Shown here: positions 15,001-63,000 of the stretch, piece after piece | How positions within the stretch are numbered: position 1 is the stretch's first letter | Layout: each line of letters begins with the position of its first letter | From: Octopus vulgaris | Taxonomy: Eukaryota | Length of the DNA stretch: 64,000 nucleotides | Reading direction: 5' to 3' | Assembly: GCA_951406725.2 (NCBI GenBank) | Contig: OX597827.1 | Location: 36,704,001-36,768,000, forward strand | Position numbers: made by a program

Positions 15001-18000
15001 TTTTTTCAGCTGGTAATTTTGGTTTTAGCTGTTGTTGTTGGTGTTGTTACCATGTTACTATTTCCCAAACCTATGTGTAAACACACTGTCTGACTTATAA
15101 ATAGAAATTATACAAAACGGAACTGAGTATTATTTATTTATTTATATTTATGAATTATTTCAGTCTATTTACTTTACTACAAAACTATAATATATTTTAG
15201 ATGTGTGTGTGTGTTTACATATGAATACATATATGAATGAACACACACACACACACACACACACACACACACACACACACACACATATATATATATATAT
15301 ATATATATAATGAGATTAGTGATAATCAGGAGAATGGAGATTTGCACATCAATATTTTATTATACAGTTATTTACATCATTCTTCAATTAGATCTACACA
15401 CGTTTCAGCTGCAAACCATTGCATACTTCTAAGTGTGCATCTTGATGTTAACTAATGGTGCAGCTTCCTCAGGGTAATTTTTTTACTGCTGTTCGAATGT
15501 CATCTGAAGAAACTCTGATATAAAGAGAAATCAAAATTCAACAAAAAAACAAACAAAACAGAGATGTTGGAAAAGAAGATAATAAGAAAAATAATAATAA
15601 CAGTGATAGTGGTACACTATTCAGGGCAATTAAAAATAGTTAAGACAAAAATAATATAAAGATAAATAAAGATAAGAAAATGGAAAAATTGGGTAATAAC
15701 CATAGAATACTATGTAAAGTGAGGAATAATAATGATTTTAATAAAATGGAACCATAAAAACTAATAAGAAATCCTAATAGTAGTAGAAACTTTAATATAA
15801 AGTACCCTAACAGAGCAGATAATAAATATGTAAGCCTGCCTATTAAAAATACAAAAATTAATAGCGAATATGATGTAAAGCAAACCTAATAAGCTAACCA
15901 GAGAAATAGGATAAATACCTATAATGTGAACAAGAAAAATTTCTCTAGAAGTAAACTATATGATAATATGGAGTGGTATATTATTCCCTTCGATAAGGAA
16001 ATCATTTCCAACATTCTAAAATTATTCTAGTCAGCAGTAGAAAGACATTTTCCAAAAATATAGTAGGTATTATCCGATTTTTAATAAGCACAAGATTAGA
16101 AAAGCGTTTTCCAATAGTAGAAACCTAGCACAAATTATTGCACAGAATGCGAAGAGATTAAATAATTTCTATGAGAATGGTATTGATTATAATCAGAACA
16201 TAAATATCAACAGTAATGAAATAAGCATTATTGATAAATATATCATGAGAAATAGCTACAATAAGGGAAACAATACAAGGGAAGCAACTGATATTAATCC
16301 TAGGATGGGACAAGAGAGAGAAGGCATGAACGCTAGAAAGTGCAGCACTGGGAAAGTAAATGATGAAAATAAAGCTAATAACGAAACAGAGAAACAATGG
16401 AATTAAAGCAAGGGAAGTAACAAGTACTAACTCAAACACTATAACAGAAAGCGGTATCCAGGATGTAAAAAATCAAAATAGTGTAAATAACTTAAAACAT
16501 AGAAAAAATTAACCAAATAACAATAAGAGATTATAGAAGAATAAGTAGAGATAATAAGTATAATTGTGCAAAATGTAAATTATGCCCGTTAAAATTAAAT
16601 TGCAAAATAAAAGATGTCGTCTACAGGTACAAAGTAATTTCAGGAGAGGTATATTTCTACATAGGCGCTAGTTCTAGTTTCATAAAACGTAGACTAGCTA
16701 ATCATAAATATCCTTCTTATAGTTAATTTTATTAAACATAATCTTAATCTTTAACCCTTTTAAAATTTTATATAGTTTTATTTTTGTAGAGGTGTTCACT
16801 TAATCCAAGTTCGTTATTTGTTTTAATTTGCCTAATTTTATCTTAATTCTAGTAGTTTGTGAAATGTATTTGCTCAAACTTCTTGAAAGTATATTTAGAT
16901 GCATGAACACATCTTAAAGCATGTTCTCGTCTACGGTTTAACAGATTAAATTTTGAGGTAAAAAAAAAAAAAAAAATAATAATAATAATAATAATAATAT
17001 GAGTTTAAGTAAATTAATTTGGTCGCTAAAAGATAATAATAGAGCATACACAATTAGCTGGAAATTAATTAGTAGAGCTAAACCGTATTGAGGAAGCAAA
17101 CGTTGTGAATTGTGTGTTGAAAAAATTTAGCAAATTTTTACCTCAAAATTTAATCTGTTAAACCGTAGACGAGAACATGCTTTAAGATGTGTTCATGCAT
17201 CTAAATATACCTTTAAGAAGTTTGAGCAAATGCATTGCACAAACTACTAGAATTAAGATTAAAACAAATATCGAACTTGGATTAAGTGAACACCTCTACA
17301 AAAATAAAACTATATAAAATTTTTGAAGGGTTGAAGATTAAGATTATGCTTAATAAAATTAACTATAAGCAGGATATTTAATTAAATACAATATAACAAG
17401 AAAATTGTAGATCTATAGATTAATAATCATAAATATAAATAGATAAGTCAAAAAGGTAATTGAATACCTTAAAATATATGAATAGCCTTCTAAATTAGTA
17501 GAATGGTAAGTTAGAATATAATACAGAAACTATGACCTACTTTAAGACCAAATCCAGCAATAAATACCTAATTGGCCGGGGTAATCTTCAGGTCATGAGA
17601 AATACGACTATTTATAGTAACACTAACACCCCATAAAAGACTCTTATTTGGTTAGTTTCATAGTTTCTTCAGATGATATTTAAACAGCAGTAAAAACATA
17701 AACCTGAGGAAGCTGCAGCGATAATTTACACCAAGATGCGCACTTAGCAGTTCCCAAACCATGCACTGCAGCACCGCAAGATTTAATTAGGTGCGCCTCG
17801 AAAAAGTAAGATTATATTTCAAAATATGAAAAATACAAACCGAAATACACTATTGTTCATATATAAATGTCAAAGTAGCAAAAAACTAAATACTAAGTTC
17901 TAAACTAAGAATGAGAGGTGGTTGTGTCATTCAACTCATTTAGGCTAATTATGGTATGACAGTGTTATTCGATTTTGAATCTGAAATTTCATAAGGATAA

Positions 18001-60000: not shown

Positions 60001-63000
60001 TATTTCTTTTTCCTTCTGTGTGTATATATATATATATATATATATATATATATATATAAACTGAGAATGTGTGACAGTCTGTTTGTCTGTGTGTCTGTAT
60101 GTGTGCATCGCTAAAACTTGAGAACAACTCAACGGATTTAATTAAAATTTTACACATGCCTTACTTAGGATCCATGCAGTGTCATGGGCCCAAAAACAAT
60201 TTTCAACTTCTTGCTTAATGTGAGCCCAAAGCAATCTCTTATCTCTTACACTATTTCAGTATTATGTGTCAAAAGTGAAACAATAACATCTCTCTTGTAG
60301 TGTGAGATAATACTTTCAGTTTTAATAGTTTCACTATTAATACTTTTAGTTTTAATATTTTTGCTATCAATACTTTCTCGTGCAGCCATCTGGTTCGCCA
60401 GTCCTCAGTCAAATCGTCCAACCCATGTTAGCATGGAAAGAGGACTTTAAATGATGATGATGATGATCATCATCATCGTTTAGAGTTTCACCATGTATTT
60501 ATATACATGTTTGTATGTATATATATATATATATATATATATATATATATATATATATATACACATACATATATATACATGTATATATATATATATATAT
60601 ATATATATATACACATACATATATATACATGTATATATATATATATATATATATAACATACATATATATACATGTATATATATATATATATATATATATA
60701 TATATAATATACAATATGTTATATTACTCGGTAGTCAAGATATCTCTTCGGTTATCTGGCTATTTGAAAACGTTATGAAAAAATATTTTTCATAACGTTT
60801 TCAAATAGCCAGATAACCGAAGAGATGGTGTTGTGGATTTCCACTTCGGCATCTGAAACTCAGAGTTTTATCTTGACTACCGAGTAATGTAACATATTGT
60901 ATAGATAAATTTCCTCTATTTACATAATATTGAGGTCTCTTTCTTTCTTTTGTTATCTTACCGTTTTATCAATATATATATATATATGTATATAAACATA
61001 CATATATATACATGTATATATATATATATATATATATATATATATATATATATGTATATATATATACATACATATATATACATGTATATATATATACATA
61101 TACACACACACATATATATGTATATATATATATATAGATATATGTATATATATATATATATATTTATGCATGTATATGTATACACATACATATAGACCAA
61201 AGTAAGCACATAAATGAGAAACAAGGTGGAAAATTAGTACGCGAATACCAGAGGTAGAGTAATATGCTTTATTAAAAAGCACCAAAATTATCACAGAAGC
61301 TGTTACTCAGAGCTTCCTATTCCCGTTCATCGGACAGTTTTGTTTAGAATGGAACAAAAATAAGGTTACATGCATAAATATACAATTAGTTTGATAGATA
61401 CGCATTTGAAAATGGTTTTGTTTCATTGATCCTTTCAACTAATGGTATTTTCAATAACTGGTTGCATGCAATAACAAATTGTGGTTTAAAATCATATTCT
61501 TATAAAAATCGAAGAAGACTTTAAATCAAAAATAGCTTACAAAGAAGGAAAAGGCCTGAACACCCAGGGTAAATAATAAGCTGTAAAATATAAATAAATT
61601 AATAAATTAAAAGATGTACCCGTTTAAAACTTTTTTCACGCTAGATTACTTATACATTTAGCAGTATATACACATACCAAGCAATCTGTAATATACACAT
61701 GTACACTAAACATGCAAATGCAGATACATCGCTACATACATATACAGACATATATAGGGAAGACATAAATATATACAAATGCATATATATATATATATAT
61801 ATATATATATATATATATATATATATGTATATGTATATATATATATATATATATATATATATGTATATGTATATATATATATGTATATGTATATGTATAT
61901 ATATATATGTATATGTATATATATATGTATATATATGTATATATATATGTATATATATATATATATATATATATATATATATATATATATATATATATAT
62001 ATATATATATATATATATATATATATATATGCACACACACACATGCACGTGTACAAAATCTCCTGGTGTATGCTTATACGAGTTAGTTGTTACAGGCGAA
62101 AGAAAGAAAAACAGAAAATTAGAGAAAGAAATGGAAAAAATAGATTGTGGTAGAGAGTGTGAATTGATGGCATTCGAAAAGTATCTAAAGAAGGTTAGAT
62201 ACTTCGATTAGCTTGTGAAACGAACACATAAAAACACACACATAAAATTACATGTATATCTACATAAATACAAACATACATACAAAAACACACGCATATA
62301 GATACATATACAAATATGCAAAAAATATGTACGTATTTTTGTACATGGTACAAAATGTACCATGTACATGGTCATATTACTCTTTTTACTCTTTTTACTT
62401 GTTTCAGTCATTTGACTGTGGCCATGCTGGAGCACCGCCTTTAATCGAGCAACTCGACCCCGGGACTTATTCTTTTGTAAGCCCAGTACTTATTCTATCG
62501 GTCTCTTTTGCCGAACCGCTAAGTGACGGGGACATAAACACACCAGCATCGGTTGTCAAGCAATGCTAGGGGACAAACACAGACACACATGCATATATAT
62601 ATATATATATACATATATACGACGGTCTTCTTTCAGTTTCTGTCTACCAAATCCACTCACAAGGCTTTGGTCGGCCCGGGGCTATAGCAGAAGACACTTG
62701 CCCAAGGTGCCACGCAGTGGGACTGAACCCGGAACCATGCGGTTGGTAGACAAGCTACTTACCACACAGCCACTCCTGCGCATATGTATAAAATTATGTA
62801 CAATTATGTAAAGTATGTACATGGTCACATATATAAAATTATATACTTCTGAACCTTTCCTATAGAGTGAAGATGCTTCTCTATAGCAGTGTGGGAGCAT
62901 TCCATTTTCTCTGCAAGTTCCCTGGTCGTTTGGCAAGAATTTTTGTGCAAAAGTTGGTTTAATCGCTCTTCAACAAACTCAACTGGACGGCCAGAGTGAG

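What the first reader, a model, noticed from the sequence alone, without database searches (positions are those of the whole stretch)
15308..60902. Six HHR-bearing ends form fold-backs, always reading outward
Seen: inverted repeats at 15308/20517, 33809/34115, 49094/49285, 49523/50540, 51385/52337 and 60709/60902 come from different families. In each the left copy is on the minus strand and the right on the plus strand, so both 3' tails face the flanks. Spacers range from 3 nt to kilobases. Established: PLEs can have inverted pseudo-LTRs. Inference: one integration route is shared, such as priming from both strands of a self-complementary (TA)n target or snap-back cDNA synthesis. The 3-nt loops favour snap-back.
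Basis: partly seen in the sequence, partly recalled or inferred. Interest (0 to 1): 0.75.

Follow-up and report, generated by a model that had tools for sequence, protein, structure and literature searches.

The report
Head-to-head retroelement ends beside (TA)n repeats
Six inverted repeats are real and look like the known head-to-head insertions of Penelope-like retroelements, but only some of them carry a hammerhead ribozyme, so this adds examples of a known pattern.

Summary
All six inverted repeats exist at the stated coordinates. They belong to six unrelated families, and each family occurs in the window only as its pair. Shuffled sequence gives no such repeats.

"HHR-bearing" is overstated. 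Rfam finds no hammerhead at any threshold. My own descriptor gives:
- a canonical type-I hammerhead in both arms of 51385/52337;
- one in the left copy only of 49094/49285;
- a weaker one in the left copy of 15308/20517;
- a variant-core candidate in the right arm of 60709/60902;
- nothing in 33809/34115 or 49523/50540.

Where a ribozyme sets polarity (4 of 6 pairs) it reads outward. Five of 12 outer ends abut (TA)n, against 0 of 12 inner ends (P about 4e-6).

This is the published architecture of Penelope-like elements: head-to-head inverted pseudo-LTRs, a "tail" on one arm, AT-rich or (TA)n targets, and junction palindromes read as self-priming. A remnant of a Hydra-like PLE endonuclease lies at 23030-23422.

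The pattern is neither universal nor specific to ribozymes. Solo ribozyme-like copies, two SINE fold-backs and two possible inward-facing pairs also occur. Verdict: new members of a known kind, of modest interest.

The parts
15308..15518 (-). Family a, left copy. The tail 15308-15392 abuts (TA)n at 15285-15307. The hammerhead-like motif has its core at 15472-15466, GAAA at 15406-15403 and a putative cleavage site after 15395.
   Evidence: the fold gives no support (z -0.6)
17658..17790 (+). Family a, plus-strand copy, 5' part. It has the CUGAGGA core and helix II, but the GAAA/helix III block is replaced.
   Evidence: 84% over 94 nt to 15518-15425; read
20432..20516 (+). Family a, plus-strand copy, 3' tail. 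It is probably the same copy as 17658-17790, split by about 2.64 kb of inserted DNA.
   Evidence: 88% over 85 nt. The two pieces meet at the same element position. The split is an inference.
33809..34115 (.). Family b: a perfect palindrome with 153-nt arms and its centre at 33962. The right end abuts (TA)n. On the left, 41 nt of other sequence lie before (TA)n. No ribozyme motif.
34591..34798 (.). Second, partial copy of palindrome b (left arm plus 54 nt of the right arm). It lies inside a local direct duplication in which 33640-34018 matches 34400-34798.
   Evidence: (I2)
49068..49152 (-). Family e, left copy: a complete type-I hammerhead. Helix I is 7 bp, the core CUGAGGA is at 49142-49136, helix II is 4 bp with a long loop, helix III is the palindrome ACAAUUGU, and C17 is at 49078. 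It runs 26 nt beyond the inverted repeat.
   Evidence: the minimum-energy fold shows helices I and II, z -2.9, 0 of 200 shuffles as stable
49237..49285 (+). Family e, right arm. It holds only the core and the 5' half of helix II. The 3' half of the ribozyme is absent.
49500..49662 (-). Family c, left arm. It has about 20 nt of extra tail carrying CTCCATTTTC, and it abuts (TA)n at 49466-49499.
50407..50543 (+). Family c, right arm. The tail is shorter and is followed by a degenerate CA/TA repeat and a SINE.
51375..51665 (-). Family d, left arm, with a canonical hammerhead (core 51512-51506, C17 at 51440). The tail runs about 10 nt further than in the right arm.
52057..52337 (+). Family d, right arm, with a canonical hammerhead (core 52210-52216, C17 at 52282). 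The tail abuts (TA)n at 52338-52408.
60708..60782 (-). Family f, left arm. It abuts (TA)n and lacks the 43 nt that make up helix II, GAAA and helix III in the right arm.
60786..60962 (+). Family f, right arm plus a 59-nt family tail. The hammerhead-like motif has core CCGAAGA at 60817-60823, GAAA at 60855-60858 and a 6-bp helix I (60811-60816 with 60868-60873).
   Evidence: The tail is shared with 36118-36170.
35990..36175 (+). Solo, diverged copy of family f. It has the same variant core (CCGATGA, 36031-36037) and the family tail.
12037..12162 (+). Solo copy of a seventh ribozyme-like family (g). Its core is CUGUAGA and it has the minimal ACGU helix III. It is flanked by (TA)n on both sides.
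48483..48610 (-). Second solo copy of family g (core CUGUUGA), flanked by (TA)n on both sides.
23030..23422 (+). 5'-truncated remnant of a Penelope-like element's C-terminal GIY-YIG endonuclease. A 93-nt 3' region follows and ends at a microsatellite.
43988..44298 (.). Head-to-head fold-back of SINE-like family S1: minus copy 43988-44154 and plus copy 44161-44298, with a 6-nt spacer. Both outer ends abut (TA)n. No ribozyme.
57615..57823 (.). tRNA-like SINE S2 on the minus strand, with a 47-50-nt inverted copy of its own 5' head attached head-to-head.

Best explanation
The six structures are most likely insertion products of short, non-coding relatives of Penelope-like retroelements (PLEs). They probably belong to a lineage that targets (TA)n, like the Hydra clade. 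They have the head-to-head arrangement that PLE integration is known to leave: two copies of the element's 3' region lie back to back, so each 3' end faces a flank.

Shown here:
- The arms of each pair are the only copies of that family in 64 kb.
- The ribozyme, where present, points outward.
- The outer ends, and not the inner ends, sit on (TA)n.
- In pairs c, d, e and f one arm runs further outward than the other. In c and d this is a longer tail; in f it is a family-specific tail confirmed in a second copy; in e it is the 3' half of the ribozyme.

Inferred:
- The two tight palindromes (b and f, with loops of 3 nt or less) arose when the reverse transcriptase turned back and copied its own new cDNA (self-priming, or snap-back). 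In f the shorter arm also skips the 43-nt hairpin region. That fits a secondary copy made from the first arm.
- The four spaced pairs (a, c, d, e) cannot be simple snap-backs, because their spacers are not palindromic. They fit either priming from both nicked strands of the target, with the two cDNAs joined through filler or captured DNA, or an 'inverted pLTR, body, pLTR' unit.
- The ribozyme is a passenger mark of PLE ancestry. It is not the cause of the fold-back.
For: 1. One event per pair. Each of the 6 families hits only its own pair in the window. Arm identity is 100% (b), 99.3% (d), 97-100% (f) and 95.9% (e). Inner boundaries are symmetric in a, c, d and e.

2. PLE-type ribozymes. Pairs d and e have type-I motifs with a short palindromic helix III (ACAUAUGU, ACAAUUGU) and a long helix II. 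Cervera & de la Pena 2014 give these traits for PLE hammerheads, and they also note pairs of motifs about 100-700 bp apart on opposite strands (PMC4209133, passages).

3. Target. Five of 12 outer ends abut (TA)>=5, against 0 of 12 inner ends. The background is 2.2%, giving P = 3.8e-6. Craig et al. 2021 report (TA)n targets for Naiad and for almost all Hydra-clade families, which also carry canonical hammerheads.

4. Unequal arms. One arm runs further out in c (about 20 nt), d (about 10 nt), f (59 nt, confirmed as family sequence by the copy at 36118-36170) and e (26 nt). A tail on only one of the inverted pLTRs is a published PLE signature. Frangieh et al. explain it by two internal start sites of reverse transcription.

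5. A PLE is present. The ORF at 23030-23422 matches the last 111 residues of an 806-aa protein (41% identity, E 4e-25). [quoted passage not shown] The fragment has 2010 relatives at E<=1e-3.

6. Shared tail motif. CTCCATTYTY occurs 6 times against 0.67 expected, and 0 of 100 shuffles reach 6. Four of the six lie in tails of a, c and d, and one lies in another 3' end beside (TA)n at 33632.

7. Mechanism in print. Junction palindromes are read as self-priming and head-to-head is the commonest form. A PLE protein cuts and extends both strands.
Against: - No reverse transcriptase or endonuclease lies inside or next to any of the six pairs. This rests on 278 stop-to-stop ORFs of 60 aa or more, after 51 low-complexity ORFs were dropped from 329.
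- The endonuclease remnant at 23030 shares no sequence with any arm, and its Pfam match is below the cut-off (E 0.0034). Its long relatives reach only sub-threshold RVT_1 (E 0.019) and GIY-YIG (E 0.0023 to 0.012) scores.
- Rfam's hammerhead models match nothing, not even pairs d and e.
- Pairs b and c have no ribozyme at all. Their polarity rests only on a short tail motif and on (TA)n.
- No direct (tandem) pLTR, the most typical PLE feature, is seen for any family.
- No target-site duplication could be read.
- Four outward pairs of four have only a 1-in-16 chance value.
- Fold-backs also occur in two SINE families without ribozymes, so the process may not be PLE-specific.
- Family copies outside this window could not be examined.
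Confidence: 0.6

Rival explanations
1. The structures are cut-and-paste DNA transposons or MITEs, and the arms are their terminal inverted repeats. The ribozyme-like motifs would then be incidental.
For: An inverted repeat, a unique core and a second inverted repeat with symmetric inner boundaries is the textbook shape of such elements. Pairs a, c, d and e fit it. Pairs b and c have no ribozyme. The window holds piggyBac, mariner and Helitron remains. Pair e is flanked by TTAA on both sides, but that TTAA is itself part of the palindrome.
Against: In 4 of 6 pairs the repeat is not terminal, because one arm continues outward with family sequence. In e this is the rest of a complete hammerhead; in f it is a 59-nt tail shared with 36118-36170; c and d also run further on one side. 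No target-site duplication is readable at a, c or d. A canonical three-helix ribozyme in d and e is unlikely by chance (4 real hits against a mean of 0.175). The termini match no superfamily motif that I recall; this was not tested.
Confidence: 0.12
2. Each pair is two independent insertions of the same family, in opposite orientation, into one (TA)n hot spot.
For: (TA)n tracts are clearly preferred sites. The S1 SINE pair 726-905 (+) / 1209-1375 (-) faces inward across a microsatellite, as two separate hits would. The arms of a and c are only 83-88% identical.
Against: Each family is otherwise absent from 64 kb, yet is present twice within 0-5 kb, in 6 of 6 families. Inner boundaries coincide in a, c, d and e. 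Arms are 96-100% identical in b, d, e and f. Loops of 3 nt or less (b, f) would need two insertions truncated at exactly the same base.
Confidence: 0.1
3. The palindromes formed after insertion, by fold-back or template switching of the replication or repair machinery at hairpin-prone (TA)n tracts. Reverse transcription would play no part.
For: Long (TA)n tracts are self-complementary and sit next to 5 of the 6 structures. Fold-backs are not limited to one element class: S1, S2 and the ribozyme families all show them. Palindrome b lies inside a local 760-nt duplication, so the region is rearrangement-prone.
Against: The symmetry axes lie inside the elements, at their 5' sides, and not in the (TA)n tracts (0 of 12 inner ends touch (TA)n). 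The consistent outward polarity and the unequal tails are expected from priming at 3' ends. A DNA-level fold-back gives no reason for either.
Confidence: 0.1
4. The tight, perfect palindromes (b and f) are assembly or read artefacts.
For: The arms of b are 100% identical over 153 nt, and b lies in a near-identical local duplication. Craig et al. note that such PLE structures trouble assemblies.
Against: The second copy of b differs by one base and has a different right junction. In f the arms differ by a 43-nt deletion and by point changes, which artefactual fold-backs would not show. Arkhipova et al. 2013 argue that such structures in rotifers are real.
Confidence: 0.05

Closest known systems
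Inverted pseudo-LTRs and head-to-head 5'-truncated copies of endonuclease-bearing Penelope-like elements (Arkhipova et al. 2013, PMC3846280; Craig et al. 2021, PMC8557442)
   Same: Back-to-back copies of the element's 3' region with the 3' ends outward. Palindromes at the junction. An extension on one arm only. AT-rich or (TA)n targets. A hammerhead in the repeated part. Occasional long unique spacers.
   Different: No reverse transcriptase or endonuclease ORF lies between or beside the arms. No direct pLTR is present. The units are only 50-300 nt long. Two of the six lack any ribozyme.
Hydra clade of PLEs (Craig et al. 2021, section 11)
   Same: Canonical hammerheads together with insertion into (TA)n, and presence in molluscs among other phyla. 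The window's endonuclease remnant resembles proteins that have the clade's CxCX5C linker (read by eye).
   Different: The remnant is not linked by sequence to the six pairs. Clade membership was not tested by phylogeny.
Paired minimal hammerheads on opposite strands in Schistosoma PLE remnants (Cervera & de la Pena 2014, PMC4209133)
   Same: Two PLE-type hammerheads about 100-700 bp apart on opposite strands, as in pair d (the two cleavage sites are about 840 nt apart).
   Different: In the passages I read, that paper gives no orientation (outward or inward) and no flank analysis.
Metazoan non-LTR retrozymes (Cervera & de la Pena 2020, PMC7229834, listing only; Li et al. 2026 preprint, abstract and passages)
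   Same: Short non-coding units with a type-I hammerhead, proposed to be non-autonomous PLE derivatives.
   Different: Retrozymes are head-to-tail tandem arrays. Here no tandem copy is present, and the copies are inverted or solo.
L1 twin priming (recalled, no paper read)
   Same: A second priming event on the other target strand yields an inverted segment.
   Different: Twin priming inverts a different, more 5' part of the same RNA. It gives an inversion, not two copies of the same 3' region.
MITEs and Foldback-type DNA transposons (recalled)
   Same: Hairpin-like elements with long inverted arms, often at TA sites.
   Different: Here the arms are unequal at their outer ends, carry a polar ribozyme, and show no readable target duplication.

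Membership tests
Penelope-like element insertion | ORF with a PLE-type reverse transcriptase and a GIY-YIG endonuclease | tested here: not met
   No RT or EN lies in or beside the six pairs among 278 ORFs of 60 aa or more. One unrelated endonuclease remnant lies at 23030-23422.
Penelope-like element insertion | Hammerhead ribozyme in the repeated (pLTR) part | tested here: inconclusive
   Canonical in d (both arms) and in e (left copy). Weak in a. Variant core in f. Absent in b and c. Rfam finds none.
Penelope-like element insertion | Head-to-head inverted 5'-truncated copy with 3' ends outward | tested here: met
   The ribozyme reads outward in 4 of the 4 pairs that have one. In b and c polarity rests only on the tail motif and on (TA)n.
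Penelope-like element insertion | Direct pLTRs from partial tandem copies | tested here: not met
   No direct repeat of any of the six families is in the window.
Penelope-like element insertion | Optional 30-40-bp tail on one end only | tested here: inconclusive
   One arm is longer in c (about 20 nt), d (about 10 nt) and f (59 nt, confirmed as family sequence). The lengths differ from the published 30-40 bp, and no family consensus is available.
Penelope-like element insertion | AT-rich or (TA)n target | tested here: met
   Five of 12 outer ends lie on (TA)>=5 against a 2.2% background.
Hammerhead ribozyme, type I (Rfam models) | Score at or above the curated covariance-model threshold | tested here: not met
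   No hammerhead match at gathering score or at E<=10. The long helix II inserts (about 40 nt) in d and e are a likely cause; that is an inference.
Hammerhead ribozyme, type I (core and helices) | CUGANGA and GAAA cores joined by helices I, II and III, with a cleavable H17 | tested here: met
   Met for d (twice) and for the left copy of e. Self-cleavage cannot be tested with these tools.
Metazoan non-LTR retrozyme | Head-to-tail tandem repeats of a hammerhead unit | tested here: not met
   No tandem copies.
TIR DNA transposon or MITE | Inverted repeats exactly terminal and flanked by a fixed target-site duplication | tested here: not met
   One arm extends beyond the repeat in c, d, e and f. 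No duplication is readable at a, c or d. The flanks of b and f are (TA)n and say nothing either way.

The most novel reading that the evidence does not exclude
A (TA)n-targeting, Hydra-like PLE enzyme in this genome may integrate its templates as obligate back-to-back pairs. A dimeric enzyme-RNA particle would prime on both strands of the palindromic (TA)n target. The same enzyme may also mobilise unrelated short RNAs, including the tRNA-like SINE S2 and the S1 family. That would explain why fold-backs and (TA)n junctions are shared by elements with and without ribozymes. Two families would also carry hammerhead cores that depart from the conserved consensus yet are kept in diverged copies: C instead of U at position 4 in family f, and U instead of A at position 6 in family g.
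Probability: 0.15. Interest if true: 0.55.

Novelty: new member of a known kind. Interest (0 to 1): 0.3.

Why it matters
The way Penelope-like elements integrate is still poorly understood. The head-to-head copies, the one-sided tails and the microsatellite targets are the main genomic clues to it.

This window offers short, young examples where the junctions can be read base by base. They include a perfect 153-nt palindrome and a 99%-identical pair with intact ribozymes. They also suggest that two different routes are at work: turning back on the new cDNA, and priming from both strands.

A genome-wide tally of these families would test those routes directly. In itself the pattern repeats what is already in print.

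Tried and rejected
- Rfam at gathering score and at E<=10, on the whole window and on four sub-regions, gave no hammerhead. All matches were sub-threshold microRNA-type hairpins caused by palindromes and microsatellites.
I used stop-to-stop ORFs instead.
- A word-indexed search for longer relatives of the endonuclease fragment found nothing. The full HMMER search did find relatives.
- Pfam at E<=0.001 and a PDB sequence search gave nothing for the 806-aa relative.
- I tested a shared junction motif, TTGTATWTATA, at 3' ends. 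It is not enriched (4 against 0.70 expected, 2 of 100 shuffles reach 4, and two of the four are one duplicated site). I dropped it.
- A hit of the strict descriptor at 8930-8989 has no consecutive helix I pairs. I take it as chance.
- The spacers of c, d and e and the flanks of d were compared with the window. Only microsatellite matches and one internal 62-nt palindrome (50287-50348) turned up.
- I looked for relaxed ribozyme cores in b and c by eye. Pair c has UGAUGA-UC-GAAA with no helix II, which I rejected.
- The organism was not identified. Copies of these families outside the window therefore stayed unchecked.
- The supplementary family and ribozyme lists of Craig et al. 2021 were not opened. 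They may already list such families.

Full report
THE WINDOW

The window is AT-rich (about 34% G+C) and contains no N. It is crowded with (TA)n and (CA)n microsatellites and with interspersed repeats. Pfam scans of stop-to-stop ORFs find a piggyBac transposase (28463-30274, minus strand), mariner pieces (3339-4399 and near 63000) and Helitron/PIF1 pieces (21117-22355 and 41535-41843). They find no reverse transcriptase. These scans covered 17 ORFs and 278 ORFs of 60 aa or more. One search had found 329 such ORFs, of which 51 were dropped as low-complexity.

THE OBSERVATION

All six inverted repeats are real and lie at the stated places (direct reading).

- Pair a: 15308-15392 / 20432-20516, 85 nt, 88% identical, 5039 nt apart.
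- Pair b: 33809-33961 / 33963-34115, 153 nt, 100% identical, a palindrome centred on 33962.
- Pair c: 49520-49662 / 50407-50543, 83-88% identical, about 740-790 nt apart.
- Pair d: 51385-51665 / 52057-52337, 281 nt, 99.3% identical, 391 nt apart.
- Pair e: 49094-49142 / 49237-49285, 49 nt, 95.9% identical, 94 nt apart.
- Pair f: 60708-60782 / 60786-60903, a 3-nt loop, with the left arm lacking 43 nt that the right arm has.

Used as BLAST queries, the arms hit only their own family. The families are therefore distinct, and each is present in the window only as its pair. There are two additions. Family a has a third piece at 17658-17751. Palindrome b has a partial second copy at 34591-34798, inside a local direct duplication. 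Shuffled sequence gives no inverted matches at all (0 in each of 10 shuffles, against 29 real ones within 6 kb).

ARE THE ENDS HAMMERHEAD-BEARING?

Rfam says no. There is nothing at gathering score. There is no hammerhead among the 150 listed of 246 matches at E<=10 for the whole window (96 lower-scoring matches were not shown). There is none in four local scans at E<=10.

I therefore wrote a descriptor for the type-I motif: helix I, CUGANGA, helix II, GAAA, a short helix III, H, helix I.

- The strict version hits four loci, against a mean of 0.27 hits in 30 mononucleotide shuffles.
- A version allowing one core deviation, but demanding longer helices, gives 4 hits against a mean of 0.175 in 40 dinucleotide shuffles.

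The solid cases are these.

- Both arms of d. The cores are at 52210-52216 (plus) and 51512-51506 (minus). Helix II has 6 bp closing a loop of about 40 nt, helix III is the palindrome ACAUAUGU, and the cleavage triplet is GUC.
- The left copy of e. The core is at 49142-49136, helix I has 7 bp and helix III is ACAAUUGU. Its minimum-energy fold shows helices I and II, and 0 of 200 shuffles fold as well.

In e the ribozyme runs 26 nt beyond the inverted repeat. The right arm holds only the core and the 5' half of helix II.

The left copy of a has CUGAGGA, a 7-bp helix II, GAAA and a 2-bp helix III. Its helix I is poor and folding gives no support (z = -0.6).

The right arm of f has three helices around a CCGAAGA core, with one extra U before GAAA. 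That is two deviations, so my descriptor missed it. A diverged solo copy of the same family at 35990-36175 keeps the C at core position 4. It changes two helix I pairs on both sides (A-U to G-C and A-U to U-A) and loses one pair. I read this by eye from the alignment. That gives the fold some support.

Pairs b and c show no motif.

In total, 4 of 6 pairs have some ribozyme-like motif in at least one arm, and 1 of 6 has it in both arms.

POLARITY AND FLANKS

Any inverted repeat can be described as 'left minus, right plus', so the claim needs an independent marker. In the four pairs with a ribozyme-like motif, it reads toward the flank in every case. By itself that has a 1-in-16 chance.

The flanks are stronger evidence. 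Five of the 12 outer ends abut a (TA)>=5 run (left of a, right of b, left of c, right of d, left of f). None of the 12 inner ends does. The background is 2.2%, giving P = 3.8e-6.

A short tail motif, CTCCATTYTY, occurs 6 times against 0.67 expected, and 0 of 100 shuffles reach 6.

- Four of the six occurrences lie in the outer tails of a, c and d.
- One lies in another 3' end beside (TA)n, at 33632.
- One lies inside the ORF at 23105.

In four pairs one arm runs further outward than the other.

- In c the left arm is about 20 nt longer.
- In d the left arm is about 10 nt longer.
- In e the left copy carries the rest of the ribozyme.
- In f the right arm is followed by 59 nt that are family sequence, because they recur at 36118-36170.

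The repeats are therefore not terminal, which argues against cut-and-paste elements. I could read no target-site duplication at a, c or d. The (TA)n flanks of b and f say nothing either way.

PAIR A IN DETAIL

The plus-strand piece at 17658-17790 matches the ribozyme part of the left copy, but its GAAA/helix III block is replaced. It ends at the element position where the tail piece 20432-20516 begins. The simplest reading is one plus-strand copy split by about 2.64 kb of inserted DNA. The true partner distance would then be about 2.1 kb. That stretch itself holds a separate 260-nt inverted repeat (16705-16964 / 17135-17380).

WHAT ELSE IS IN THE WINDOW

- A seventh ribozyme-like family (g) has two solo copies, at 12037-12162 (plus) and 48483-48610 (minus). 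Each lies between two (TA)n runs. Both carry a core with U at position 6 and the minimal ACGU helix III.
- Two SINE-like families form the same fold-backs without any ribozyme.
  - S1 has copies at 43988-44154 (minus) and 44161-44298 (plus), with a 6-nt spacer and (TA)n on both outer ends.
  - The tRNA-like S2 at 57615-57776 (minus) is joined head-to-head to a 47-50-nt copy of its own 5' end.
  - The polarity of S1 rests on 7 of 10 copies ending at the same position while their starts vary.
- Against 'always outward', the S1 pair 726-905 (plus) / 1209-1375 (minus) faces inward across a microsatellite.
- The repeat at 16705/17135 has A-rich ends on its inner sides, so it too may face inward.

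A PLE REMNANT

The ORF at 23030-23422 gave a sub-threshold GIY-YIG match (E 0.0034). A full HMMER search found 2010 relatives at E<=1e-3 and 206 at E<=1e-10. The ORF aligns with the last 111 residues of an 806-aa protein (41% identity, E 4e-25). [quoted passage not shown] Pfam gives the 628-aa relative only sub-threshold RVT_1 (E 0.019) and GIY-YIG (E 0.0023) matches.

A reverse transcriptase with a C-terminal GIY-YIG is the PLE layout. Craig et al. give the CxCX5C linker as a mark of the Hydra clade. The remnant shares no sequence with the six pairs.

COMPARISON WITH WHAT IS KNOWN

- Craig et al. 2021 (PMC8557442; passages and section 11 read) describe PLE insertions as 5'-truncated and often in partial tandem. 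They state that there is 'often' an inverted 5'-truncated copy at the 5' end, which forms inverted repeats. They also describe a 30-40-bp tail at one end and a microsatellite bias. For the Hydra clade they report canonical hammerheads, insertion into (TA)n in almost all families, and presence in molluscs among other phyla.
- Arkhipova et al. 2013 (PMC3846280; passages) describe inverted pLTRs, a 31-bp tail on one of them, captured host spacers of 0.9-1.5 kb and palindromes at the inverted junction. They infer self-priming and call head-to-head the most frequent form.
- Cervera & de la Pena 2014 (PMC4209133; passages) define PLE hammerheads by a short palindromic helix III and a large helix II. 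They note pairs of motifs about 100-700 bp apart on opposite strands.
- Frangieh et al. 2024 (PMC11167929; parts 1-2 of 4) show that a purified PLE protein cuts and extends both strands of an AT-rich target. They also show that reverse transcription starts at two internal sites, whose spacing explains the tail.
- Li et al. 2026 (bioRxiv 10.64898/2026.07.22.740005; abstract and passages) treat animal retrozymes as non-autonomous PLE derivatives, but only in tandem form.

MECHANISM

I read the six structures as products of PLE-type integration of short non-coding relatives, with two routes.

- The tight palindromes b and f have symmetric arms and loops of 3 nt or less. They fit the enzyme turning back on its own cDNA. 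In f the shorter arm lacks both the outer tail and the 43-nt hairpin region of the ribozyme. That is what a secondary, error-prone copy of the first arm would look like. This is inference.
- The spaced pairs a, c, d and e have spacers that are not palindromic, so a simple snap-back cannot explain them. Their symmetric inner boundaries and high arm identity still point to one event. One possibility is priming on both nicked strands, with the two cDNAs joined through filler or captured DNA. The other is a unit of the form 'inverted pLTR, body, pLTR'.

Which of these holds cannot be decided inside one window. SINE families show the same fold-backs, so the ribozyme is a mark of ancestry and not the cause.

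LIMITS

No copy of these families outside the window could be examined. The orientation statistic rests on four pairs. The ribozyme calls for a and f are weak. For b and c, membership in the same class rests on a short motif and on (TA)n. The supplementary lists of Craig et al. were not opened.

VERDICT

The inverted repeats are real and non-random. The 'six HHR-bearing ends' claim is only partly true. These are new members of a known kind.

Noticed in passing
60817-60823 and 36031-36037: Family f keeps a hammerhead-like fold with C instead of the conserved U at core position 4 (CCGANGA) in two copies that are only about 66% identical. Two helix I pairs change on both sides between the copies.
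   Followed up: partly
12049-12055 (+) and 48606-48600 (-): Family g has minimal hammerhead-like motifs with U instead of A at core position 6 in both of its diverged copies (74% identical). The units are about 125 nt long, solo, and each lies between two (TA)n runs.
   Followed up: partly
23030-23515 (+): A 5'-truncated C-terminal GIY-YIG endonuclease remnant of a Hydra-like Penelope-like element. It ends at a TG/TA microsatellite, with no ribozyme in its 93-nt 3' region.
   Followed up: partly
33640-34018 and 34400-34798: A near-identical direct duplication with a 760-nt period. It carries a microsatellite, a 41-nt spacer and palindrome b. The second copy breaks off 54 nt into the right arm.
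   Followed up: no
43988-44298 and 57615-57823: Two SINE-like families without ribozymes form head-to-head fold-backs. The S2 case is a full copy plus a 47-50-nt inverted copy of its own 5' head.
   Followed up: partly
16705-16964 / 17135-17380: A 260-nt inverted repeat (91% identical, 170-nt spacer) with poly(A) and (AAT)n at the inner end of the left arm. It may be a tail-to-tail pair, and it is nested inside the spacer of pair a.
   Followed up: no
55285-55443 / 56113-56271: A 159-nt inverted repeat (89% identical, 669-nt spacer) of unknown nature. No ORF match and no ribozyme motif.
   Followed up: no
28463-30274 (-): A piggyBac-type transposase ORF (DDE_Tnp_1_7, E 8e-56) split over two frames. 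Mariner and Helitron/PIF1 fragments lie elsewhere in the window.
   Followed up: no
S2 copies, e.g. 13519, 24635, 30992, 50575, 57615, 62619: In all 7 minus-strand copies listed, the 3' end of the tRNA-like SINE S2 is followed by a TA-type microsatellite. The repeat may be the element's own tail or its target.
   Followed up: no
50287-50348: A 62-nt near-perfect palindrome (94%) inside the spacer of pair c, unrelated to the arms.
   Followed up: no
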